Shown piece after piece: positions 1-18,083 of a stretch of DNA of 18,346 nt (position 1 is the first letter of the stretch; each line of letters starts with the position of its first letter). Both the position numbers and the translations under genes were made by a program. The notes under the pieces are model-generated. The model worked only from the letters and a program-made list of their open reading frames with translations, ran no database searches and was not told where the DNA came from. The stretch is from a virus (lineage: Duplodnaviria > Heunggongvirae > Uroviricota > Caudoviricetes), in IMG/VR virus record IMGVR_UViG_2531839178_000019, positions 1 to 18,346 of that record. The stretch is one strand, 5' to 3'.

Positions 1-378
1 TTACTCAACGTCAAACGCCCGAATTGAAGCCAAATCATCCAGACCGCTCAGCTCCTCTTTCATTTCACGCTGACGGCGATAAATCTCGTCATTGCGCTCA
101 ACCTGTGCCTGAGCCATTGCTGCCGCCAGTTCTTCCAGTTCCGGCATCGACAGTTTCACCTGCTGATTATCCGCATCACTCCACACCATATGTGTTTGTG
201 CCGCGACAGATTTTGCCAGCATGACCACCGGGGACAGGCGGCCCAGTGAGTCGGGGCCAGCATTCCAGATACGACCGTTCCATTCAAACGTGAACGGCTT
301 CGCCTCCTGTTCTGTGCGCCATGCTTCAATTTCCTGACGCCTGGCCTCTCTGGCCGCTTCCAGCATTTCTGGTGTCAC
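1..378 (-). CDS. Putative tail fiber assembly (chaperone)-like protein, C-terminal reading frame; the probable N-terminal segment lies upstream (about 503-563) in another frame
   Basis: ORF ends with TAA at 1-3. It sits directly downstream of the side tail fiber gene, where tfa lies in lambda. No Shine-Dalgarno precedes the in-frame GTG (376-378) or ATG (364-366), whereas the neighbouring frame has GAGGAA-N6-GTG at 561-563. The two frames meet at a 7-nt homopolymer at 496-502. Confidence 0.45.
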   Translation of the reverse strand: MTPEMLEAAREARRQEIEAWRTEQEAKPFTFEWNGRIWNAGPDSLGRLSPVVMLAKSVAAQTHMVWSDADNQQVKLSMPELEELAAAMAQAQVERNDEIYRRQREMKEELSGLDDLASIRAFDVE

Positions 379-573
379 AGTGAATGGGGCTATCTCACCC
401 CATTTGCCGCTTTGCAGTTCCTGCCAGATTTGCTGCCCCGTCGGAGCGACATCATCAGCGGTGGCTGTGTAGGGGACTGCCTGGTCCCTGTCGTCAAAAA
501 AACGTCACAGTCTACTGCGCCACTTTCGGTATAACGGGGATTAATGATTTTTTTAATTTCCACGGTGCATTCC

Positions 574-1989
574 TCACGATGTGCGAATAAAAAGCCCGGG
601 CATTGCGCCAGAGACATGTGCATCCGGCACCCCGGACAGGGCGCAATATGACCCCGGTAATGAATGCTCTGAACATCCCGTAATGAAAAATTGTGGGGAT
701 GCTATATACGTTCCGGTGGGAGTACTGGGCACTGAAATCCCCACCGGTCCCAGTCGTGAGCCTCTGTATGACTGCCCCCTGACAAGTCTGATGACTTTAT
801 CACCGTCAGCTTCTCCCTGGTACGCAGCAATAATCAGCCCGCCAATGTCAGGGTCTCCCCATCTGTTGCGGACAGAGCTCGCCACGATTCTGTAAATAAT
901 ATCTTCTGTGGTTATATTTATTTTCACCCAGCCAGTCAGTCTGGATATGGGCCAGTAGCAGTAGCGGGTGTGATAAATGGGGCCGTTAATGCCGTAAAAA
1001 GTAAGGGATTTGGCTCTGTACCTCGGTTCTGTTGTCTCAGGGCGTGCATCAGTCCACCGGATGCTGAGCACCCCTTCAAACCGTGTGTCGGGTATGATGA
1101 TGTCGTAGGGGCCAGCAACGGAATATTCACCTGGCAGCGCATTCCTTACCCAGGCCAGGAAATCACTCTTAGTGTCAAAACGGATAACATCTTCAGGCAG
1201 AAAAGCACGCCCAAAGCCGAATGCGCCGGGTATCGCCAGACGGCCTTTTGTCCGGTCGTAAATGTCGCTCTGTGCTTCCATCGTGGCCGCACTTTTCAGC
1301 CCCAGATTATCCCGGGACTTCTGTTGTGCCTTTTCGCCTGCTGCTGCGATTTCTGACAGATGGTTAGCCATTTTCAGAGTGCCGGTCAGCGCAGCATCAA
1401 TGTCATTTTTGGCCTGTTCTGCTGCGCGGGCATAACCTGCGGCATCCTGTGCGCTCTGTCCGGCTGCGGCTGCATTTGCTCCTGTGCTTGTCACATCTTC
1501 CGCAGTGGCCTTTCTGTCCTCAGCTGTGACGGTTGCATCCTGTCGGGCTTTCTCCGCAAAACGTTGTGCATCATCACGGGCCGTTGCGGCTGCCGCCACA
1601 TCCTGCGCCGTCTGCTGTGCGTTTCCGGCTGCAGCCCCGGCACTCTGCTGCGCCTGCGCCACCATTTCCTCAAAGCGCTTCATCACCTCCGGACGTAAAT
1701 CACCATCCTTTGGTGCATTCAGAAACGCGTTCAGTGTCCCCGGTGCATCAGTCGGTGCCACATCAATATCCCCGACACGGGTTGGCTGCCAGCCGTTACA
1801 GTGAAGCGCAACCTCGTAATACCCCGGCTCAGCCTCAATCACATAAGCACCGTTATTGTCCGTCACGCAAGTGGCAACAACGTGTGCCACAACGGTCGGA
1901 CTGGTTCTTCTGGCCCGCAGTTCAATCGCACAATTTACGACAGGTTTACCCGCCCCATCTTTCAGTACACCTGAAATCTTTACTGCCAT
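574..1989 (-). CDS. Side tail fiber protein (Stf-like): conserved N-terminal domain, Ala/Gln-rich coiled-coil stalk, divergent C-terminal globular domain
   Basis: 471-aa ORF starting at ATG 1987-1989 (MAVKISGVLKDG...), preceded by GGGGTGA. The first ~100 aa match the N-terminal domain recalled for lambdoid Stf/StfR proteins. The track ORF start at 2031 is an upstream in-frame extension without an RBS. Confidence 0.8.
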   Translation of the reverse strand: MAVKISGVLKDGAGKPVVNCAIELRARRTSPTVVAHVVATCVTDNNGAYVIEAEPGYYEVALHCNGWQPTRVGDIDVAPTDAPGTLNAFLNAPKDGDLRPEVMKRFEEMVAQAQQSAGAAAGNAQQTAQDVAAAATARDDAQRFAEKARQDATVTAEDRKATAEDVTSTGANAAAAGQSAQDAAGYARAAEQAKNDIDAALTGTLKMANHLSEIAAAGEKAQQKSRDNLGLKSAATMEAQSDIYDRTKGRLAIPGAFGFGRAFLPEDVIRFDTKSDFLAWVRNALPGEYSVAGPYDIIIPDTRFEGVLSIRWTDARPETTEPRYRAKSLTFYGINGPIYHTRYCYWPISRLTGWVKINITTEDIIYRIVASSVRNRWGDPDIGGLIIAAYQGEADGDKVIRLVRGQSYRGSRLGPVGISVPSTPTGTYIASPQFFITGCSEHSLPGSYCALSGVPDAHVSGAMPGLFIRTS

Positions 1990-2719: not shown

Positions 2720-5700
2720 TCAGCTAATCGTGATGCCTGCAGTGGCTTTCTTCATCACAACAACCAGCAAATCGCTGATACTTGCTGTGGGATACCAGCC
2801 ATTTACCAGCCATGCCGATACAGAAAACTCCAGCGTCATGTGACCGTGACCGGCAGGCATATCAATAACACCCGTATATATCAGCGTATTATCCAGGGTC
2901 GTTCGGTTATAAATTTCGGCACCGTTTTTCTTCACTATCAGGCGGCATGACGAATAAATATTGTTATTCTTCCGCTCATGTTTAGCACCGCGAAACGCCA
3001 CCGCGGGAATAACAATTTGCCGATCAAACGGCTGATCGTCATAAACCCTGACGGTAATGGTCCCTGATGGCCACCTCTCCGGTGCCCGGGAGTCCCGTGG
3101 GAAAGGTTTGCCCACTGTTTTAACGAGATCGCCTTCAATCTGGTTCGCGGACAATTTTCCCAGAACCCGACAGTTCTTATTAATCGTGACGTTGTTGAGC
3201 GTCCCGGAGTTCGCGTTCACGTTACCGCTGATATCGGCATTTTTCGCCGTCAGCCGTCCGCCAGGTGTCAGGGAAAATGCCGGAGGATTACCGCCGCTGG
3301 TAATGGTCGGAGCCGTCAGGCGTTTCAGGAACACGTCGTTCATGAATATCTGATCGCCCTGACCAACAAACATCGGCTTTGTGTTGCCATTCGCAGGATT
3401 AATCATCGCAATCCTGTCTGCCGCCAGCAGCACCTGACTCTGCATTCCTGCTGGCGTATTCTCAATACCGGCACCGATACCCGCAATATAAAGGCGTCCG
3501 TCCTTCATCTGTTGCAGCTTCACAGCCCACATGCTGTTCAGGTTATTATTTGTATCAACCTGAACTTTCTGTATCTGCTGGATTGCAGCACTCTGATTTT
3601 CCAGTTTTTTATTGACGGTTTGCGTGATTTCATTGCTGACATTCGTAATGGACGTCCTGATTTCAGTCAGGTCCGGCGCAAGCTGACCGTTATCAATCTG
3701 CGTCCACAACTCCTTGCCGAGATGCGTTTTATTGATCAACCCTTTATAAAAACTCAGATAACCTTCCGCATCATCGCTCGCCCGACCGACGGCCTCCACA
3801 AATGCCGATTTGCCAACGGTGTTCACACTGCGAACGTAAAAATAATAATCATGGCCCGGCCTGATATTGATACTGGCGGCTATCCAGTACAGCGCCGTGC
3901 CAAGATAGCGGGCGCTGGTTTCAACCTGCCTGATATCCGAAATCCGCTTTTCCGAAAACCAGAACTCAAACTGCACCGTCGGGTCATATACAGCCAGTTT
4001 CGGGACCGCCGTTATCTGAAAATACCCCGGTATCAGTTCAATAGTGACAGGCGCTGCCGGTGCCGCAATCCGGAACGATACCGACGCCGGATCGCCCTGC
4101 TGCCCCCGGGCATTTACCGCCCGGACTGTCAGACTGTAATTCCCCAGCGCCAGCTGCCTGAAGCGGTATGTGGTTTCCGTCGTCCTGGCTGTGCTGACCA
4201 GCCGCTCACTGCCGTCGTCCGCTGCCACGGTCAGGCGAAGCAGGAAGCTCACACCCTTCACCACCTTCGGCGTGTCCCATCGCGCCAGCACCTGATATTC
4301 CCCGCTGTCTGCGGTGACTTCGGCGGTCAGATGCTGCACCGCTGGCGGCGTGACACCATTCACCGTGCCGCGCCGGTCACCGTCAAAGTGTGCCCCGTTA
4401 TCCACGATGGCCTCTTTTTCCGGCACATGCTGCACGGCGGTGATGGCATACGTGCCGTCGTCGTTCTCACGGATACTCACGCAGCGGAACAGGCGCTGGC
4501 GCAGCGTCGGCAGCTTCAGCCCCCACACGCTGTATTCTGCAACGCCGTCAGGAACCCGGCTCACTTTCACCTTCACGCCGTCGGTGACGGACTGAACCTC
4601 CACGCTGACCGGATTGCCATTTCCGTCAACCAGGCTTATCAGCGTGGTACCGGAGGACGGCAGCGTGATTTCACGGTCGAGCGTCAGCGTCCGGGTCTGG
4701 CTGTTCACCGCCAGTACGCGACCACCAGTGCTGATACCGGCATAATCATCATCGCAGATTTCAATGACATCACCCGGTACATGGCGAAGCCCTTCTGCGC
4801 CCACGCTGAAGTCCACGGTCTGCGTTTCCAGCAGTTCCGTTTTAATCAGCCACAGCCCGGCGCGGTGCGCCTGTCCCCGGCTGGTACAGCCAAAGGCATC
4901 CATCTTCGTGACGTTACGACCGTAACGGACAATGGCCTGCGTGTCCTCCACAAGCTCTGTCGCCGTCTCATGACCGTTGTCCGGATCAATCCAGTTCACC
5001 TCAACGACATTATGGCGGTCCTTCAGGGCGCTGAAGCTGTAGCGGAACGGCGCGCCATCATCCGGCATCACCACATTACTGCGGTTATAGGTCCACACTT
5101 TATCCGACGGTCGGTCCTGCACGAACGTCAGCGTCTGCCCGTTCCATACCGGCATACAGCGCATCGCCGAGCAGAAATCACTGAGAACATCCCACGCCTT
5201 ACGCTGTGTGGTCAGGTAAGCGTTACAGGTGATGCGCGGCTCCGTGCCGCCAAATCCGTCCGGCACTGACTGGTCGCAGTACTGGCCGATGACATACAGC
5301 GCCCATTTGTCCACATCTGCCGCACCAAGACGTTTCCCCATGCCGTAGCGCGGATGAGTGAGCATGTCCCACAGACACCAGGCCATGTTGTTGCTGTATG
5401 CTGGCTTAAGCGTTCCGTCCCAGATACCGCTGTATTGCCGCGTCTGCGGGTTATAGTTCGACGGCACCTGCAGAATGCGCCCGCGAAGATGATAATTGCG
5501 ACTCACCTGCTGGTTACCGAACTGCTCTGAATCCACCTGCACGCCGACCAGCGCCGTGTTCGGGTAGCACTGTTTCACATCGATGATTTCGGTGTACGAC
5601 GACCAGAGCGTTTTGTTCTGCAGCTGGTCTGTGGTGCTGTCCGGTGTCATCCTGCGCATCCGGATATTAAACGGGCGCGGCGGCAGGTTACCCACCACCA

Positions 5701-8245: not shown

Positions 8246-8574
8246 CAGTTCACCACCTGTTCAAAATCGGCCGTTACAGTCACCCATAACGCCCCCACGC
8301 TTGCCGACCATTTACGACAAACCACCCTGATCAGTTTCCAGTCATAAGGTGGCGTCCACTGAAATGCGCGGACGCCACCGTGCCGTTCCAGAAAGGCTTT
8401 TAAAGATGGGTGTTCACCTTTACGAACACGTATCGTCACGCTGTAAGTCGACAACTGGTTATTCAGTCCCGCCGCACGACGCTGTTCATAACCATCGCCC
8501 AGCTTCACTGTCACCACTTTCGGCTCTGATACCACATTCATATCCGGGCGCACTTTCCAGTGAAACGTCTCCAT
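8245..8574 (-). CDS. M: Minor tail protein M
   Basis: 109-aa ORF matching lambda M in length and sequence (…GDGY.QR…FEQVVN). Its ATG shares one base with the H stop codon (TAATG). Confidence 0.95.
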   Translation of the reverse strand: METFHWKVRPDMNVVSEPKVVTVKLGDGYEQRRAAGLNNQLSTYSVTIRVRKGEHPSLKAFLERHGGVRAFQWTPPYDWKLIRVVCRKWSASVGALWVTVTADFEQVVN

Positions 8575-11500
8575 TACCGGTATGCTCCACTTAACCGGCC
8601 ACCATCACGGGCCTGCTGTTGCATAAAGTCCGCGGCCGCTTTTTTCCCGAGGTCATAAACCACCTTCAGGGCAGCCGGACCTATCTGCCCGTTCGTGCCG
8701 TCGTTATTGATCTCAATGTTGTACTGCGGGGCAAACATCACCATGCCTGAACCACCAGTATCCGCCACAACCCCCAGCTTACCATCAGCACCGCGACGCA
8801 GTGGCAGAATGGCTTCAGGTCCCGCTTCCCCCATCACACCCGCGCCTTTTGCAAAAGCAAAAAACGTCGGACGGTTAACCACCGTGCCACTGTAGCGACT
8901 CAAATCAGCAGACTGGTAAACACCGCCATCAGCATTAGTCGTGAAGCCGAATAAAGAACCGACGCCCTTTACCGCCTGCATCATGGCCATCTGTGCCATA
9001 ATTCTGGCCATATCTGACAACAGGGAAGAGGTGAAGGATTTAAAATTCAGCTTACCGGTGGTACAGAATGTCGCCAGTGCATTACCGGCACTGCTGAATG
9101 CCACTGTAAACATCTGTTCTGCCGTTCCCGCCGCATTATCCGCATCCGCCGTAAAATTCTGAAACGCCCGCATGGCACCGTTTTTCCAGTCGCCCTGCGC
9201 CACTTCCAGTTCCTGCCAGTAGCGTTTGTTTTCATTCAGTTGTCGCTTCAGGCTCCCCTTCAGCACCTCCTCAGCCCTCCGGTAGTCCTCCGTCCCGTAA
9301 GTGCCTTTCTGGCGACTGTCATTCTCAAGCTGTTGCAACTGTTGCCGGTATTCCTGCCGGATGCGCAACTGTGCCTGGTAGCGCTGCCGCTGCTTATCCC
9401 CCATACCTGCAGTGGCAATATCCAGATTGTGCTGCTCACGCAGTGCACGTTCTTTGTCTGCCAGCTGGCTGGTCAGCTGAACCGTTTTTTTCTCAGGTCG
9501 TTAAGCGCTGTCTGTTTCTGCAGCTCCTGCTGTTTCACATCCAGCAGCGTCAGCGCCTGAATCAGCTCATTCTTACGGGCCAGCACACTCTTTTCATCTG
9601 CCGTCAGCTTTTTCCCGTCCAGGTCGCTGATGCGCTGCTGCAGGGCCAGAAGCTGTTTATGCGCTTCAGTCATCCTTTCAGTGGCAATGCCTGCTGACTG
9701 TCTGGCAGCAGCAATCTGCCCTTCCACCTGTGCCTGCTGCTGACTGTACTGCAGCAATAACCGGGTGGCCTCATCATTACGGGTTGCCCGTGTATTTTTC
9801 TTAATGGCTTTTTCGTAACGTTCATTTTCACGCTGTATCGCCGCATCCCTGACAGCCTGGTCGGCGTACTGCATGGCATTAATACGCGCAATTTCCCGCT
9901 GATGTCGTGCAGCTTCCGTTTCATTCATCCGGTTCAGCGCGGCATTTTCAGCATTCCGGCGTTTCTGTTGCTCCTGGTAATTCCGTTCTGCCTGCGCTTT
10001 TGCATCCTGCAAATCCTTCCGGCGTTTTTTCTCCTGAAGATCGTTAAGACGCTGCTGATCGTACTCCACCTGTGTGGAGGCGTTTGTCCACGGATATTTT
10101 TTCGCGCGCTGAATTTTTTCCTGTAACGCATCAATCTGCGCATCCAGCGAGTCTTCACGACCAATATTCATGGCCGCATCCCAGAACTGCTTCCACCAGT
10201 CAGACAAGGTTTGCAGCGTACTACCCAGCGCATTGAGATTATTATCAATATCAGATGTGCGTTTACCGGTTTCCTCTGCCAGCGCAGACATGGCGATCCG
10301 GGCCGCATCACTGGACCGCCCCTGCTCCCCAAGGACGCGTATCTGCTCAAGCTGAGTGGCAGTCAAAAAATGCAGCGCATTGTCCAGCGCCTTCGCGGCA
10401 TTTACAGGATCATCCTTCAGCCGCTTAAACTGATTTATGGTATCGCTGACCGACTGGCCAACCGATCGCTCCATCTGTGCGGCAGCTTTCGCCACCATAC
10501 CAATATCGTTTCCATGAAATGCCCCACTGCCCACCACCTGTGCCAGCGCACCGGCTGCCGCATGTTGCGTGATACCATTCCCGGATATGGCCCGGCTGAG
10601 TTTCCACAACTGCCCGACAGTGACACCGGCATAATGTCCCGTCAGCGCCAGCTGACGGTTAAATTCCTCGCCCTCCTTCCGGCCGTCATGCCAGGCTTTA
10701 CCCAGACCCAGGACCGCCGCGACAAGTCCGCCAATAACGCCGCCAGTCATCATGCCTTTCGGCGACATCAGTGCGCCTGTCCATCCGGCACGGTTAGCCA
10801 GCGTTATCCCGGATCCCCTCAGCGCACCAAAATTGCCGCGCGCCATCTGACTGATTAACACCCCCAGCTCCCGCCGGGCTGCCGCACTTTTCAGCCCCAG
10901 CGAATGTGTGGCTTTTCCTGCCCGCTCCATTTTGCGGATATACACTTCTGCAGCACTGCTTACCCCCAGCTGAGCCGCCCTGGCGCGAAGCAACTCAGAA
11001 GACGACAGATTCTGGCGGGTTGCCTGCTCTTTAAGCTGGCGGATAAACGCCGCTTTCTGCCGGGTGGCCTGTTCCTCTGCCTGCGTCAGGGCACGGGTTT
11101 TCGCCGTGATCTCCGAAATCAGCGCCAGATAATCCTGCTGACCAACCCCGCCACTGTTTCTGGCCTGTCGGATCTGCTGCTGAATACGCTGTAATTCCTG
11201 AAGCCCCGCACCGGCCTGTTTCACACTGTCAATCTGGCGATAAAAGGCGGCAGCCGCTTTATCCTGCGCCTCCGCCAGTGCCCTGGCCTGCGCCTGTTCC
11301 TCGCGCATTTTCTGATTCAGGGCATCCACGCGCAGACGGGTTTGTTCCACCTCACGGGCCATGCGTTCATGAGCCCGTGCATTCTTCTCCACCGTCTGCG
11401 CATGGGCTGATGCTGCTGTTGCAGCCGAAGAAGCCGCCTGCATTGTCTGCCGGGCCGCCTGAGTCTGACGCTCCATAAAACGCTGCATACGGGCAGAAGA

Positions 11501-11614
11501 CCGTTCTGCATCGCTGGCTGCACCATTCAGAAGGTTTTTGATACGGGGAATTTCATTTTTAAACTCTGCCGCATCAATCCCCAAATCAATGACCAGGTTG
11601 GCTATCTGGTCCAT
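8574..11614 (-). pseudogene. H: Tail tape measure protein H, reading frame interrupted at an A7 tract (coding strand; plus-strand T7 at 9485-9491)
   Basis: N-terminal ORF from ATG 11612-11614 (MDQIANLVIDLGIDAAEF..., RBS GGAGGTG) stops at 9473-9475. The C-terminal 276-aa ORF (8574-9404) ends ...NNDGTNGQIGPAALKVVYD..., matching the lambda H C-terminus as recalled, and its frame is open upstream back to 9500. The two frames meet exactly at the A7 run. Confidence 0.85.
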
Positions 11615-11915
11615 AACGCACACCTCCGGAAATACCTTCCCCAAGATGCATCAGTTCTTCGTCCGTTCGCTCCGGTATCCCGTTCTCTTCCGGTAAAAGG
11701 CTGAAATCAGCCACCGCAGCATCGCTGCTGCCGGACACCATTCTCACGATCAATGCCTTCAGCGAGGCAAACTGCGCATCCATCCACACATCACTGAAGC
11801 TCTGCATCCGGAAATAATCGCCCCACTCACCAAGCTCAGTGGCCGACATATCCGACAGCATCCGCCGCCAGTCTGCCCGCCGGAACTCCCGGGCAAGCCG
11901 CATGACAAACTGCAT
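11586..11915 (-). CDS. T: Tail assembly protein T, the -1 frame extension expressed as the G-T fusion
   Basis: 109-aa ORF in the -1 frame relative to G; its frame is open upstream to 11948 and overlaps the G 3' end. G-T-H gene order as in lambda. Confidence 0.8.
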   Translation of the reverse strand: MQFVMRLAREFRRADWRRMLSDMSATELGEWGDYFRMQSFSDVWMDAQFASLKALIVRMVSGSSDAAVADFSLLPEENGIPERTDEELMHLGEGISGGVRYGPDSQPGH

Positions 11916-11923
11916 TTCCCGCG

Positions 11924-12310
11924 TCAGGACTTTTCCGGCGTCAGCGCCTCATGATCATCATCCCCGGCATTCTCAATGGTCCCCATACCGCTCAGCGACA
12001 GAACCCTCTCCGCCCCCGCGCCCAGCGCATCATACGACCATGTTGTCATAATGGATGCGCAAAGCGTCTCAACATCCTGAGACTGCTCAGCATTCCACAG
12101 TGAGCGGGAAACCAGCCAGGCATTGATATCCATTCCCATACGCAGAAAAGCAATCTGTCGTTCAGCCTCCGGCAGTTCTCCCTCCTGTGCATCAAACTTT
12201 GCCGTTCGCTGCTGAACAAACGTCAGATATTCAATTCTCTGCAGCCCGGACAGCTCACTGAGCACCACGGACTGTTTTTCATAATTAAACGTATCCTGTT
12301 TCAGAAACAT
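11924..12310 (-). CDS. G: Tail assembly chaperone G
   Basis: Start taken at ATG 12308-12310 (MFLKQDTF...SELSGLQRIEYL), resembling the lambda G N-terminus (MFLK...SELSALQRIEHL) as recalled. GGAG lies 6 nt upstream. Confidence 0.85.
   Translation of the reverse strand: MFLKQDTFNYEKQSVVLSELSGLQRIEYLTFVQQRTAKFDAQEGELPEAERQIAFLRMGMDINAWLVSRSLWNAEQSQDVETLCASIMTTWSYDALGAGAERVLSLSGMGTIENAGDDDHEALTPEKS
11930..11936 (-). other. Putative -1 ribosomal frameshift site for the G-T fusion (coding strand G_GAA_AAG)
   Basis: This is the only slippage-prone sequence inside the 33-nt G/T frame overlap (11916-11948). The lambda site recalled is G_GGA_AAG. Confidence 0.5.
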
Positions 12311-12325
12311 CATGTTCTCCGGATG

Positions 12326-12349
12326 CAAAAAGCCCCGGATAACCGGGGC
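12326..12349 (-). terminator. Rho-independent terminator/attenuator between V and G (minus-strand RNA GCCCCGG-UUAU-CCGGGGC followed by UUUUU)
   Basis: Perfect 7-bp GC-rich inverted repeat (12332-12338 / 12343-12349) with an A-run at 12327-12331 on the plus strand. Confidence 0.65.
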
Positions 12350-12368: not shown

Positions 12369-13052
12369 TTATGGTGCGCTGACGGTCACCGCAGCCACTG
12401 CCACAAACTCTCCGTCAGAGGTCATGCCCACGATGCTGACACTGCCCTGCTTCACGCCTTTCACCGTGGCCACAAGCCCGCTCAGGGTCACCGAAGCAGT
12501 CTGAGGATCTGACGAATGCACACTGATCGCTTTGACACTGACAGATGCCGGTGCCACCGTCAGTCCGGTAACACCCACGGTTTCAGCGCCCTCCTCTGCC
12601 AGATACGGACGCCCCACACCGCTGATTTTTACAGTACGGGTCATCACCTCTTTTGAGGTAATGGTTTTACCCAGAGAACTCAGCCAGCCACGGAAAACAT
12701 CAACCGTACCGTTGGGGTATTTGATACGAAACGCGCAGACTTCACCGGAATCGAACAACTGAACCAGTTTTTTCTGCCCGCTGTCACCCGGACGCCAGGC
12801 CAGCGTCGCCAAAGTATCACCGACGGATTTCTGCCCCTGGGTTGTCGTTTTCCAGTCTGCATCTTCATCATCGAGATAAGTGTCATCTTCTGCATCAGCG
12901 GTCATTTCGCCAGGTTGCAGATCCTTCACCATCGCAAGACGCAGCCAGTCAGTGTCCGACAAAGGGTTCGCAAACGCATCGCCCTTGCCGGTGTACATCC
13001 AGAACGTCGTTCCCGCACCTTTCGTTTTTGCCAGTGGATTTGGTGTGGTCAT
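12369..13052 (-). CDS. V: Major tail protein V
   Basis: Start taken at ATG 13050-13052 (MTTPNPLAKTKGAGTTFWMYTGKGDAFANPLSDTDW...), homologous to lambda V as recalled. Strong RBS AAGGAGGT 6 nt upstream. The track start at 13127 is an upstream extension overlapping U. Confidence 0.92.
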   Translation of the reverse strand: MTTPNPLAKTKGAGTTFWMYTGKGDAFANPLSDTDWLRLAMVKDLQPGEMTADAEDDTYLDDEDADWKTTTQGQKSVGDTLATLAWRPGDSGQKKLVQLFDSGEVCAFRIKYPNGTVDVFRGWLSSLGKTITSKEVMTRTVKISGVGRPYLAEEGAETVGVTGLTVAPASVSVKAISVHSSDPQTASVTLSGLVATVKGVKQGSVSIVGMTSDGEFVAVAAVTVSAP

Positions 13053-13062
13053 TGCCACCTCC

Positions 13063-13476
13063 TTAATTCGTGTACGTGATCTGGTACGTGATTTCCGCCA
13101 TCGCCCAGGTGGCCATCTCATTATCACGTTGATAGTTAAAACCGAGTGGGTTCATGGTGTCGATGAGTCCGGAAAATGCAGGTACATCATTCAGGGCCGG
13201 GAAAATGGTGCTCTCCATCCACATATCCAGCTCTGAATCCGGTGCCTGTGCCCGGATGAAGACGGCAATATGCAGAACAGCCTGCCAGTCATCTTCATCC
13301 GTCATTTTTCCGGTGTACTGAGCATCACTCAGCCACACCGCCACGGCAGGCAGTTCCTGCGCATCAATAAATGCCGGAAGCCCGTCAAAAAACGTGGCGC
13401 TGTCTCCACACTGTTCCCGAAGGCGTGCCAGTACGACCTGGCGGATCTGTGTATGTCGGTTCATCGGGTCAGCCAT
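13063..13476 (-). CDS. U: Minor tail protein U (tail terminator)
   Basis: 137-aa ORF with ...ATFFDG.PA..D..E.PAVAV.L....YTG......W...LHI.VF..AQ.PDSELD.WMES..., matching lambda U as recalled. Confidence 0.9.
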   Translation of the reverse strand: MADPMNRHTQIRQVVLARLREQCGDSATFFDGLPAFIDAQELPAVAVWLSDAQYTGKMTDEDDWQAVLHIAVFIRAQAPDSELDMWMESTIFPALNDVPAFSGLIDTMNPLGFNYQRDNEMATWAMAEITYQITYTN

Positions 13477-16862: not shown

Positions 16863-18083
16863 TGTAGATTCAATCTGTCAATGCAACACCCCTTTCAATT
16901 ATCTCTTTCGGTGTTTTGAACTTCAGTGTCTTTCTCGGTCTGTTGTTTAGCTGAGCAGCAACCAGATCTAGTTCATGTTGAGTATATTGGGCAAGACATG
17001 TCTTTTTAGGAAAGTACTGCCGAATTAGCCCATTTGTGTTCTCATTTGTTCCCCGCTGCCAAGGACTCTGAGGATCGCAGAAGTAAACTTTAACGCCGGT
17101 GCTGACAGTAAATTCTAGATGTCTGGCCAGTTCCATTCCTCTGTCCCATGTCAGCGATTTTCTGAGTTCTGACGGTAAACTCAGGAATTTGTCGGTAAGA
17201 GCCTGATTTACTGAGACAGTAATCTTTGCCCCTGAGTCTAAGGATGATCGTATAACGTGATTTTCGGTCTACAAGTGTGGCTATATGAGAGTTTTTGTAC
17301 CTGAGACTAAATCGCCCTCCCAATGCCCCAGAGAGCGTCTGTTATCGATATTTCGGGAACGTTCGTGAATTGGTGTTCCGTTCACTATGTTAATCGTACC
17401 TCTTTCGCCTTTGCGGGTATGACGCCTGCCATGGCGAAGGCTATGCGACCGTCGCAGATGCTGTATATTCAGGTGGTGTAGCGCTTCACGGCTACGAAAG
17501 TACAGCGTTTTATAAATTGTCTCAGGTGATATTCGCAGCGTTTTTTGACGTGGTTTTGTTCGCCTTAACCATCCTGATATTTGCTCTGGAGACCATTTCA
17601 TCTCCAGCTTTTCCAGAACAAGCTTTCGCAATGGTAAATTTTGATCCAGTAAGCACGGTTTTGGCCTTTTCGCCATTCTGTTGGCTCGGTTATTAGCATC
17701 AACAGCTTTGTAATAGCGTCTGCCCCGATTACGCTGAACTTCACGTGAGATCGTCGAAGGACTGCGATTCAGCGCAGTAGCTATCGCACGAATGCTCATT
17801 TTGGCTGACAAACCAGCTCGTATCTCCTCGCGCTCAGACAGTGTCAGGTGAGCTACAGCCCGCTTACGCTCATGGGGTTTTATGCCGCCAGTATCCCTTA
17901 ACATAGTGAAGATCGTTCCGGGTTTTGAACCCAGGATATTCGCTATTTCACTGAAGCCTGTTCCGTTCTTCCATAGTTCAAAAACAGAGGCTTTTTCCTC
18001 TGCTGTAAATGTTCGTCTCATTCAAAAAACCTCCGCGACCCCATGTTTTCACATAACTGTTGCGTTGACCAATTGAATCTACA
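16863..18083 (-). mobile_element. IS30, complete length (1221 bp) with imperfect ~25-bp terminal inverted repeats
   Basis: Termini TGTAGATTCAATCTGTCAATGCAAC (16863-16887) and reverse complement of 18059-18083, TGTAGATTCAATTGGTCAACGCAAC. Encodes an IS30-family DDE transposase on the minus strand. Confidence 0.9.
16870..18021 (-). pseudogene. insI: IS30 transposase, split into three ORFs by two compensating 1-bp indels
   Basis: ORFs 17281-18021 (MRRTFTAEEKASVFELWKNGTGF..., HTH), 17090-17323 (...NSHIATLVDRKSRYTIILRLRGKD...) and 16870-17136 (MELARHLEF...DPQSPWQRGTNENTNGLIRQYFPK...) together read as one IS30 transposase as recalled. Frame changes occur near the T5 run at 17292-17296 and near 17220. 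Confidence 0.8.

What the first reader, a model, noticed from the sequence alone, without database searches (positions are those of the whole stretch)
11916..11948. The G-T frameshift window contains a non-canonical slippery sequence
T lies in the -1 frame relative to G, and the two frames are simultaneously open only across 11916-11948. The only slippage-prone sequence there is G_GAA_AAG (…ACG CCG GAA AAG TCC TGA), where lambda uses G_GGA_AAG as recalled. Lys-tRNA can slip from AAG to AAA, but the P-site Glu-tRNA would re-pair GAA to GGA with a mismatch, so the efficiency and therefore the G to G-T ratio may differ from lambda, or the site may be impaired.
Basis: partly seen in the sequence, partly recalled or inferred. 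Interest (0 to 1): 0.5.

Follow-up and report, generated by a model that had tools for sequence, protein, structure and literature searches.

The report
Ordinary G-T tail chaperone frameshift site
The one-letter difference from phage lambda's ribosome slip site is real, but this GGAAAAG version is the commonest form in lambda-like tail genes, is already labelled in public phage records and occurs unchanged in isolated phages, so it is ordinary rather than impaired.

Summary
On the minus strand, gene G (12310..11924) ends ...ACG CCG GAA AAG TCC TGA. The T frame is -1 relative to G, and G_GAA_AAG (11936..11930) is the only re-pairing site in the overlap. The true overlap is 11948..11927, not 11916-11948.

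The interpretation that the site is unusual or impaired is not supported.
- GGAAAAG sits at the same lysine in phi80 and LLS, whose GenBank records annotate it as the -1 slip site.
- It is also there in Gifsy-2, mEp043, mEp460, cdtI and a Providencia phage.
- It is present in 80 of 80 close viral contigs.
- It occurs in 22 of 26 diverged Enterobacterales lineages. Lambda's GGGAAAG is the minority, 4 of 26.
- Bases 1, 4, 5, 6 and 7 of the heptamer are invariant, while neighbouring wobble positions vary freely.

The "mismatch" is a G·U wobble: tRNA-Glu, anticodon 3'-CUU*-5', on GGA.

The most likely mechanism is tandem -1 slippage of tRNA-Glu and tRNA-Lys, producing a 241-residue G-T fusion. There is no conserved downstream RNA structure. 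A GAGG lies 10 nt upstream and may stimulate the shift.

No measurement of efficiency for this heptamer was found. This prophage copy also carries a frameshifted tape-measure gene.

Verdict: already known, low interest.

The parts
11924..12310 (-). Gene G, the tail assembly chaperone: 128 aa, MFLKQD...TPEKS, stop TGA at 11926..11924.
   Evidence: ORF and translation. Pfam PF06894 Phage_TAC_2, E=1.4e-39, and TIGR01674 phage_lambda_G, E=1.8e-53. The same start is used by PGAP in the 99.9%-identical CFSAN029787 prophage.
11930..11936 (-). Slippery heptamer G_GAA_AAG, the proposed site of -1 slippage with tRNA-Glu in the P site and tRNA-Lys in the A site.
   Evidence: Sequence. Its lysine aligns with the invariant K127 of lambda, phi80, mEp043 and Gifsy-2 G-T. 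The same heptamer is annotated as the slip site in phi80 and LLS. It is found in 22 of 26 lineages, and bases 1 and 4-7 are invariant in 26 of 26.
11927..11948 (-). The only stretch where the G frame and the T (-1) frame are both open (22 nt).
   Evidence: A T-frame stop TGA lies at 11951..11949 and the G stop at 11926..11924.
11586..11930 (-). T-frame part of the G-T fusion. Reading resumes at the G of AAG and gives VLTREMQFVMRLAREF...; the stop codon is at 11588..11586. The predicted fusion is 241 aa.
   Evidence: Translation. PF06223 Phage_tail_T, E=2.1e-14, and TIGR01715 phage_lam_T, E=4.8e-39, covering residues 132-238 and so starting upstream of the ATG at 11915. T-frame conservation starts directly after the lysine in 26 lineages.
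11947..11950 (-). Shine-Dalgarno-like GAGG, 10 nt 5' of the heptamer. It is a possible upstream stimulator; this is inferred, not shown.
   Evidence: Sequence. Complementarity to the anti-SD sequence peaks at spacings of 8-10 nt in 9 of 26 lineages and is absent at spacings of 14-22 nt. The review PMC5009743 gives 9-14 nt as the stimulatory spacing for -1 shifts. This is confounded by a conserved Glu codon at this position (E121 invariant).
11913..11915 (-). In-frame ATG in the T frame, used by PGAP and GenBank to annotate T as a stand-alone CDS. It is probably not a real start.
   Evidence: A Met at this position occurs in only 2 of 26 lineages. The conserved T-frame residues, including invariant E132, lie upstream of it.

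Best explanation
This is the programmed -1 ribosomal frameshift site of a lambda-type tail assembly chaperone pair, in an mEp460/cdtI-type prophage tail module.

Most ribosomes translate G to its stop and make the 128-residue chaperone. A minority shift while GAA (Glu) is in the P site and AAG (Lys) is in the A site of G_GAA_AAG. The single E. coli tRNA-Lys (anticodon mnm5s2UUU) moves from AAG to its preferred AAA. tRNA-Glu (anticodon mnm5s2UUC) moves from GAA to GGA and pairs C:G, U·G, U*:A. Translation then continues in the T frame to give a 241-residue G-T fusion. In lambda this fusion links the tape-measure protein to the tail-tube protein.

The heptamer is the usual form of the signal in this family, not a damaged copy of lambda's. 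No conserved 3' RNA structure is involved. A GAGG 10 nt upstream may add stimulation.

Shown here: the gene identities, the frame geometry, the positional homology of the site, its nucleotide-level conservation, and its presence in isolated phages.

Inferred: that slippage happens, that both tRNAs slip, and that the rate is low (lambda's is about 4%).
For: - G and T identities, and gene order V-G-T-H.
- The shift-site lysine aligns with lambda's, and T-frame homology begins immediately after it.
- GenBank annotates GGAAAAG as the -1 slip site in phi80 and LLS.
- The same heptamer is found in Gifsy-2, mEp043 and mEp460 and in a Providencia phage.
- 80 of 80 IMG/VR relatives keep it.
- In 26 lineage representatives below 80% identity, from many genera, 22 have G_GAA_AAG and 4 have G_GGA_AAG.
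- The wobble base of the preceding codon is G in 26 of 26, although the preceding codons vary among CCG, GCG, CTG and GTG.
- In the 22 G_GAA_AAG lineages Glu is always GAA, and in all 26 Lys is always AAG. AAG makes up only 24% of E. coli Lys codons. Wobble positions further upstream are free.
- No E. coli record among 1822 carries GGGAAAG in this exact 54-nt context; 587 match the native sequence exactly.
- An identical 49-nt junction occurs in 15 of 17 phage records, some with K-12, C or MC1061 named as host.
- A_AAG is the most shift-prone tetramer in E. coli (PMC4066793).
- Natural -1 sites with an imperfect P-site codon are known: A_CGA_AAG and G_CGA_AAG (PMC5009743).
- G:U re-pairing of tRNA-Glu on GGA, and a two-four motif class, are described in PMC10885494.
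Against: - I found no direct measurement of frameshifting or of a G-T product for this heptamer in the papers I could read. Xu et al. 2004 and the phi80 genome paper were not available.
- The heptamer breaks the strict X_XXZ_ZZN rule.
- Two other in-frame G_GAA_AAG heptamers sit inside long ORFs of this window, in J and in ORF 17281..18021. The heptamer alone therefore cannot be very slippery, or it depends on context.
- This copy of the prophage has a frameshifted tape-measure gene. Here the site may no longer be used, even though its sequence is intact.
Confidence: 0.85

Rival explanations
1. Only tRNA-Lys slips, on the A_AAG tetramer. The upstream G_GA plays no part in re-pairing, so the "heptamer" is really a tetramer site like A_CGA_AAG or G_CGA_AAG.
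For: A_AAG alone supports -1 frameshifting in E. coli, and natural sites with non-re-pairing P-site codons exist. The family tolerates several P-site codons at this position: GAA, GGA, AAA and CCA.
Against: Base 1 is the free wobble base of a variable codon, yet it is G in 26 of 26 lineages, and base 2 is G in 26 of 26. Every P-site variant seen (G_GAA, G_GGA, A_AAA, C_CCA) allows first-position re-pairing after the slip. This is what a two-tRNA shift predicts and what a tetramer-only shift does not. Without a strong stimulator, tetramers were barely above background (0.147% against 0.112%), and no conserved stimulator structure exists here.
Confidence: 0.1
2. T is made as a separate protein from its own ATG at 11915, as PGAP and most GenBank records annotate it. 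No frameshift is needed.
For: An in-frame ATG exists. RefSeq and GenBank annotate T as a stand-alone CDS in this clade.
Against: A Met at that position occurs in only 2 of 26 lineages. Annotators pick different starts in different records. Conserved T-frame residues, including invariant E132, and the TIGR01715 match (from residue 132) begin upstream of the ATG, directly after the slip-site lysine. The sequence before the ATG is GCGGGAAATG, with no well-spaced Shine-Dalgarno sequence. In lambda T is made only as G-T (Levin et al. 1993, as summarised in PMC5009743 and PMC3296357).
Confidence: 0.04
3. One reading: GGAAAAG is a decayed version of GGGAAAG, and G-T synthesis is impaired in a degenerating prophage.
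For: This copy is at least partly defective. The tape-measure gene carries a 1-nt deletion in an A8 run, and a tail-fibre-region gene has a second homopolymer indel.
Against: The same heptamer and an identical 49-nt junction occur in isolated phages. It is in phi80, a classic viable phage. It is in 22 of 26 diverged lineages. No relative in this clade has GGGAAAG.
Confidence: 0.02
4. The frame change happens at the RNA level, by transcriptional slippage on the A run, rather than on the ribosome.
For: None specific. The site contains a run of four A.
Against: Bacterial transcriptional slippage is described for runs of about 9 A or T (PMC5009743). Four A is far too short. The invariance of the flanking G bases and of the final G fits codon-anticodon re-pairing, not polymerase slippage.
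Confidence: 0.01

Closest known systems
Phage lambda G / G-T programmed -1 frameshift (Levin, Hendrix and Casjens 1993; Xu, Hendrix and Duda 2004, 2013, 2014)
   Same: The G and T proteins are homologous (TIGR01674 and TIGR01715 equivalog matches). Gene order is V-G-T-H. T is in the -1 frame. The shift is at the same aligned lysine codon AAG, near the 3' end of G. There is no conserved 3' structure.
   Different: The P-site codon is GAA (Glu), not GGA (Gly). Re-pairing therefore uses a G·U at the middle position rather than at the wobble position. The G stop follows one codon after the heptamer, against five in lambda. GT identity to lambda is only 34%.
phi80 gene G-T (GenBank FN582354) and Escherichia phage LLS genes 11/12 (PQ299149)
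   Same: The same heptamer, GGAAAAG, sits at the same aligned position. It is annotated in these records as the slippery sequence for a -1 translational frameshift, with a joined G-T CDS.
   Different: The proteins are diverged: 36-38% identity for the G-T fusions of phi80 and mEp043 and 41-45% for the T part of phi80, mEp043 and LLS. The flanks differ: GCG/GTG G_GAA_AAG CCC TTG..., with the stop five codons downstream, and no GAGG at -10.
A_AAG-type -1 sites with an imperfect P-site codon (Bacillus cdd A_CGA_AAG, IS1222 G_CGA_AAG) and the E. coli dnaX A_AAA_AAG site with its upstream Shine-Dalgarno stimulator
   Same: All rely on the sole tRNA-Lys slipping from AAG to AAA. In dnaX a Shine-Dalgarno-like element 5' of the site stimulates the shift, and the review gives 9-14 nt as the stimulatory spacing for -1 shifts. 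Here a GAGG lies 10 nt upstream.
   Different: Here the P-site tRNA can still pair at all three positions through G·U. No 3' stem-loop is conserved. The expected rate is a few percent, not about 50% as in dnaX.
PRFect "twofour" and GGGGGAA motif classes in phage tail chaperone frameshifts (PMC10885494)
   Same: A two-plus-four motif (GGAAAA) is among the motif classes that paper derived from annotated phage frameshifts. It explicitly notes that tRNA-Glu (CUU) re-binding to GGA becomes fully complementary if G:U pairs are allowed.
   Different: Those classes come from annotation, mostly of actinobacteriophages, not from experiments. The paper places its motifs in the E and P sites.

Membership tests
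Lambda-type G / G-T tail assembly chaperone with programmed -1 frameshift | The upstream ORF is a gpG homologue. | tested here: met
   PF06894, 135 bits (cut-off 27). TIGR01674 equivalog, 180 bits (cut-off 74).
Lambda-type G / G-T tail assembly chaperone with programmed -1 frameshift | The downstream ORF is a gpT homologue lying in the -1 frame and overlapping the 3' end of G. | tested here: met
   PF06223, 54 bits (cut-off 25.9). TIGR01715, 133 bits (cut-off 77). The frame is -1 and the overlap is 11948..11927.
Lambda-type G / G-T tail assembly chaperone with programmed -1 frameshift | The pair lies between the major tail tube gene (V) and the tape-measure gene (H). | tested here: met
   Annotation of the 98.7%-identical, collinear CFSAN029787 prophage and of mEp460.
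Lambda-type G / G-T tail assembly chaperone with programmed -1 frameshift | A slip-prone sequence lies in the overlap at the position homologous to lambda's G_GGA_AAG. | tested here: met
   G_GAA_AAG is at the aligned invariant lysine and is conserved at the nucleotide level.
Lambda-type G / G-T tail assembly chaperone with programmed -1 frameshift | T has no conserved initiation signal of its own and is made only as a fusion. | tested here: met
   The ATG is conserved in 2 of 26 lineages, and conserved T-frame coding starts at the slip site. That T is made only as a fusion in vivo was not tested.
Lambda-type G / G-T tail assembly chaperone with programmed -1 frameshift | A G-T fusion protein is produced at a low, fixed ratio to G and is required for tail assembly. 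| not testable with these tools
   This needs a reporter assay, immunoblot or mass spectrometry. No published measurement for this heptamer was found.
Canonical X_XXZ_ZZN tandem-slippage heptamer | Bases 1-3 are identical, so the P-site tRNA re-pairs with a change at the wobble position only. | tested here: not met
   Bases 1-3 are G, G, A. After the slip the P-site codon is GGA, and tRNA-Glu pairs with a G·U at the middle position (sequence; anticodon from established knowledge).
Canonical X_XXZ_ZZN tandem-slippage heptamer | Bases 4-6 are identical, with cognate A-site re-pairing (ZZN to ZZZ). | tested here: met
   A_AAG to AAA. A_AA.G is the top-ranked tetramer in E. coli.
dnaX/IS-type stimulated -1 frameshift signal | A conserved 3' stem-loop or pseudoknot lies 5-8 nt downstream. 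| tested here: not met
   The fold of the 90 nt downstream has z=-0.87. The consensus fold of 26 lineages is -1.27 kcal/mol with no covarying pairs.
dnaX/IS-type stimulated -1 frameshift signal | A Shine-Dalgarno-like element lies 9-14 nt 5' of the heptamer. | tested here: inconclusive
   GAGG lies 10 nt upstream here. The element is present in 9 of 26 lineages at spacings of 8-10 nt. It coincides with a conserved Glu codon and is absent from the phi80 group.

The most novel reading that the evidence does not exclude
G_GAA_AAG may be a true two-tRNA slip site whose P-site re-pairing depends on a middle-position G·U. Its rate may be tuned differently from lambda's, for example partly through the GAGG 10 nt upstream. 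Both slipping tRNAs, Glu and Lys, carry the mnm5s2U34 modification. The G:GT ratio of this large phage group would then be more sensitive than lambda's to the host 2-thiouridine (Tus/MnmA) pathway, which is already known to affect lambda through tRNA-Lys (PMC3296357). This would extend the heptamer rules measured by Sharma et al. 2014, who tested only X_XXZ_ZZN motifs.
Probability: 0.3. Interest if true: 0.35.

Novelty: already known. Interest (0 to 1): 0.12.

Why it matters
It matters little as a discovery. The G-T frameshift is a textbook case, and this heptamer is already annotated in public phage records.

Three practical points follow.
- Annotation pipelines, including PGAP and most GenBank records for this clade, still call T a stand-alone gene from an unconserved ATG and miss the fusion. 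Tools that search only for X_XXZ_ZZN will miss the commonest form of the signal in enterobacterial lambda-like phages.
- The comparative data suggest an extended consensus around the heptamer, (C/G)(C/T)G_GRA_AAG followed by T or C in 26 of 26 lineages, which could seed a better detector.
- The efficiency of G_GAA_AAG relative to G_GGA_AAG appears to be unmeasured. It would be a cheap experiment bearing on how strictly the P-site tRNA must re-pair.

Tried and rejected
- Downstream stimulatory RNA structure. The single-sequence fold of 11929..11840 is not better than shuffles (z=-0.87). The consensus fold of 26 lineages is -1.27 kcal/mol with no covariation. Rejected.
- Other shift sites in the overlap. 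All zero-frame codons in 11948..11927 were checked, and only AAG->AAA keeps its pairing. Rejected.
- Independent T initiation. The ATG is not conserved. Rejected as the main route.
- Transcriptional slippage. The A run is only 4 nt. Rejected on published requirements.
- A canonical GGGAAAG variant inside this clade. None was found in 80 IMG/VR loci, and none in the exact 54-nt context among 1822 E. coli records. That search would miss a record combining GGGAAAG with a second nearby substitution.
- Literature searches for GGAAAAG or "GAA AAG" with "slippery", "frameshift" or "tail" returned nothing relevant.
- Xu et al. 2004 (Mol Cell) and the phi80/Lula genome paper are not held. I could not check whether they tabulate or test this heptamer.
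- Link between heptamer type and upstream SD-like strength. With only four GGGAAAG lineages, one with and three without a well-placed SD-like element, there are too few to say.

Full report
**What is in the sequence**

The tail genes of this window lie on the minus strand. Gene G runs 12310..11924 and encodes 128 residues. It ends ...GAG GCG CTG ACG CCG GAA AAG TCC TGA. The next ORF, 11915..11586, lies in the -1 frame relative to G.

Walking that frame upstream from its ATG reaches a TGA at 11951..11949. The T frame is therefore open from 11948, and the G frame closes at its stop, 11926..11924. The two frames are both open only across 11948..11927, which is 22 nt. Its lower bound is the base before the T-frame ATG, not the end of the shared window.

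Within the 22 nt, each zero-frame codon was compared with its -1 neighbour. Only AAG->AAA keeps its first two bases.

**What the genes are**

The conceptual fusion reads G through AAG and then re-reads the G of AAG in the -1 frame. It is 241 residues long.
- It matches Pfam Phage_TAC_2 (lambda gpG) over residues 1-119 and Phage_tail_T over 156-230.
- It matches the NCBIfam equivalogs TIGR01674 (phage_lambda_G, 180 bits) and TIGR01715 (phage_lam_T, 133 bits, residues 132-238).
- The T model therefore begins upstream of the T-frame Met, which is residue 133.

The region is 99.9% identical to a prophage in E. coli CFSAN029787. The window is collinear with that prophage at 98.7% from position 1 to about 14045, with gene order tube protein, G, T, tape measure, M, L, K, I, J.

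The G-T segment is found in 1847 of 5426 complete E. coli genomes. It is also found at 96-97% identity in 17 phage records, including mEp460, cdtI, Tritos, HannyBb, Ayreon and phi458.

**Is the heptamer unusual?**

It is not unusual for this family. I fetched the G/T junction from lambda, Gifsy-2, mEp043, LLS and phi80, and the slip-site lysine aligns in all of them with K127 here.
- Lambda has G_GGA_AAG; the other four have G_GAA_AAG.
- The phi80 record FN582354 annotates bases GGAAAAG as "slippery sequence for -1 translational frameshift", with a joined G-T CDS.
- The LLS record PQ299149 annotates "minus-one programmed translational frameshift site GGAAAAG".
- All 80 close relatives retrieved from IMG/VR keep GGAAAAG. 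This includes five contigs that carry unrelated indels elsewhere in G or T.

A scan of one genome per species returned 70 loci. In the 60 loci analysed, the overlap contained either GGAAAAG or GGGAAAG at the expected place. Several of the GGGAAAG loci are low-coverage contigs, identical to lambda at the junction, in assemblies of unrelated taxa, and are probably contamination.

After collapsing to 26 lineage representatives (below 80% identity over 157 nt), 22 carry G_GAA_AAG. These include Citrobacter, Kosakonia, Symbiopectobacterium, Xenorhabdus, Leclercia, Serratia, Erwinia, Kluyvera, Proteus, Atlantibacter, Buttiauxella, Enterobacter, Yokenella and Phytobacter. Only 4 carry G_GGA_AAG: lambda, an E. 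albertii prophage, Edwardsiella, and one representative standing for the related Symbiopectobacterium and Serratia junctions.

Further phage records show two more heptamers at the same position. A_AAA_AAG occurs in VT1-Sakai and two other Stx phages, and C_CCA_AAA in Vibrio phage HY01. A Providencia phage again has G_GAA_AAG. The constant element is a Lys codon in the A site that can slip onto AAA. The P-site codon varies, but it always keeps first-base re-pairing.

**Nucleotide-level selection**

Across the 26 lineages, base 1 of the heptamer is G in 26 of 26. It is the wobble base of the preceding codon, which varies among CCG, GCG, CTG and GTG. Bases 4-7 are AAAG in 26 of 26. In the 22 G_GAA_AAG lineages the Glu codon is always GAA, never GAG. 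In all 26 the Lys codon is always AAG, although AAG is only 24% of E. coli Lys codons.

Wobble positions three, six and nine bases further upstream take all four bases. This pattern is expected if the RNA sequence itself is under selection. The invariance of bases 1 and 2 argues that the P-site tRNA re-pairs too.

In E. coli genomes, 587 records match the native 54-nt junction exactly. None matches the same 54 nt with GGGAAAG substituted.

**Mechanism**

E. coli tRNA-Glu has anticodon 5'-mnm5s2U-U-C-3' (established knowledge). On the -1 codon GGA it pairs C36:G1, U35·G2 and U*34:A3.

Lambda's tRNA-Gly, moving from GGA to GGG, also ends with one G·U, but at the wobble position.

The PRFect paper makes the same point for tRNA-Glu on GGA. 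It also lists a two-four motif class among the motifs it derived from annotated phage frameshift overlaps (PMC10885494).

In E. coli, A_AAG is the most shift-prone tetramer. The best motifs are those giving cognate A-site re-pairing (PMC4066793). Natural sites with poorer P-site re-pairing are known, namely A_CGA_AAG and G_CGA_AAG (PMC5009743).

I therefore think the most likely mechanism is tandem -1 slippage of tRNA-Glu and tRNA-Lys. Lambda's rate is about 4% (PMC3296357). The rate here is unknown.

**Stimulators**

The 90 nt downstream fold no better than shuffled sequence (z=-0.87). A consensus fold over the 26 lineages finds essentially nothing: -1.27 kcal/mol with no covarying pair.

Upstream, a GAGG lies at 11950..11947, exactly 10 nt before the heptamer. 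Across lineages, complementarity to the anti-Shine-Dalgarno sequence peaks at spacings of 8-10 nt (9 of 26 lineages at -4 kcal/mol or better). It is absent at spacings of 14-22 nt. The published stimulatory window for -1 shifts is 9-14 nt (PMC5009743).

This GAGG overlaps a Glu codon that is conserved at the protein level (E121 invariant). The phi80 group lacks it. I treat it as a lead, not a finding.

**Rivals**

- Independent translation of T from the ATG at 11915 is how PGAP and most GenBank records annotate this clade. A Met there occurs in only 2 of 26 lineages. Annotators choose different starts. Conserved T-frame residues begin right after the slip-site lysine.
- An impaired site is contradicted by the identical 49-nt junction in 15 of 17 phage records, several with laboratory strains named as host, and by phi80.
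- Transcriptional slippage needs much longer runs than A4.
- A tetramer-only shift remains possible, but it does not explain the invariant bases 1 and 2.

**Caveats**

- I found no experiment on this heptamer, and two key papers were not available.
- The lineage set was collected with a pattern for GG[AG]AAAG. The unbiased pass found nothing else in those loci, but the Stx and Vibrio examples show that other heptamers exist in the wider family.
- Lineages are not fully independent.
- Two further in-frame G_GAA_AAG heptamers occur inside long ORFs of this window. The heptamer by itself is not strongly avoided.
- This copy of the prophage has a frameshifted tape-measure gene. The site may be idle here even though it is intact.

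**Verdict**

The suggestion of an unusual or impaired signal is not supported. This is the common, already annotated form of the G-T slip site. Novelty: already known. Interest: low.

Noticed in passing
window 9484..9490 (minus-strand coding run AAAAAAA); ORFs 9473..11644 and 8574..9404: The tape-measure gene H is split into two frames by a 1-nt deletion in a homopolymer. It has A7 here, against A8 in CFSAN029787, where the gene is an intact 3042 nt. Among complete E. coli genomes only FDAARGOS_944 shares the A7 allele, and PGAP marks its gene "frameshifted". This is either a defective prophage or a homopolymer sequencing error.
   Followed up: partly
window about 495..502 (+ strand A7, against A8 in CFSAN029787); ORFs 1..378 and 390..623 on the minus strand: A second single-base homopolymer indel breaks the DUF4376-domain tail-fibre-region gene, which is intact at 624 nt in CFSAN029787. 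Two such indels in 18 kb suggest either prophage decay or systematic homopolymer error.
   Followed up: no
window 11947..11950 (minus strand GAGG): A Shine-Dalgarno-like GAGG lies exactly 10 nt 5' of the slip heptamer. A peak of anti-SD complementarity at spacings of 8-10 nt is seen in 9 of 26 diverged lineages. It is confounded by a conserved Glu codon.
   Followed up: partly
window 3947..3953 (minus, in J) and 17608..17614 (minus, in ORF 17281..18021): Two further G_GAA_AAG heptamers lie in frame inside long ORFs. The -1 frame stops after 10 and 30 codons respectively. Overall GGAAAAG occurs 8 times in the window against 2.6 expected, and 0 of 200 shuffles reach 8. Whether these sites cause low-level truncation is unknown.
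   Followed up: partly
window 12332..12349 (minus strand), between the tube gene V (12369..13127) and G: A terminator-like hairpin, GCCCCGG-TTAT-CCGGGGC, is followed by TTTTTG. The equivalent site in mEp460 and Ayreon is annotated as a rho-independent terminator. It would lower transcription of G, T and H relative to the tube protein.
   Followed up: no
L162-L164 (VT1-Sakai, Stx2_14040, Stx1_EH2197) overlap at about 668..704; L166 (Vibrio phage HY01) overlap at 635..689: The same G/T family uses other heptamers at the homologous lysine: A_AAA_AAG in these Stx phages and C_CCA_AAA in Vibrio phage HY01. The A-site Lys codon is the constant part of the signal, and the P-site codon has switched several times.
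   Followed up: partly
window 11913..11915; L001, L002, L159, L160, L161 annotations: RefSeq/PGAP and most GenBank records of this clade annotate T as a stand-alone CDS, with differing start codons (locus positions 1914, 1906, 697 and 685 in different records), and do not annotate the G-T fusion. This is probably a systematic annotation gap for GGAAAAG sites.
   Followed up: partly
window about 14045 onward, against L158: Similarity to the CFSAN029787 prophage stops at about 14045, within the tail-completion and head-tail joining region. The head module of this window therefore comes from a different lineage, a mosaic junction.
   Followed up: no
L130-L140 and other loci: Low-coverage contigs whose G/T junction is identical to lambda's appear in genome assemblies of unrelated taxa, including Neobacillus, Oceanobacillus, Kitasatospora, Shewanella, Pseudomonas and Leeuwenhoekiella. 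This is almost certainly lambda DNA contamination of those assemblies.
   Followed up: no
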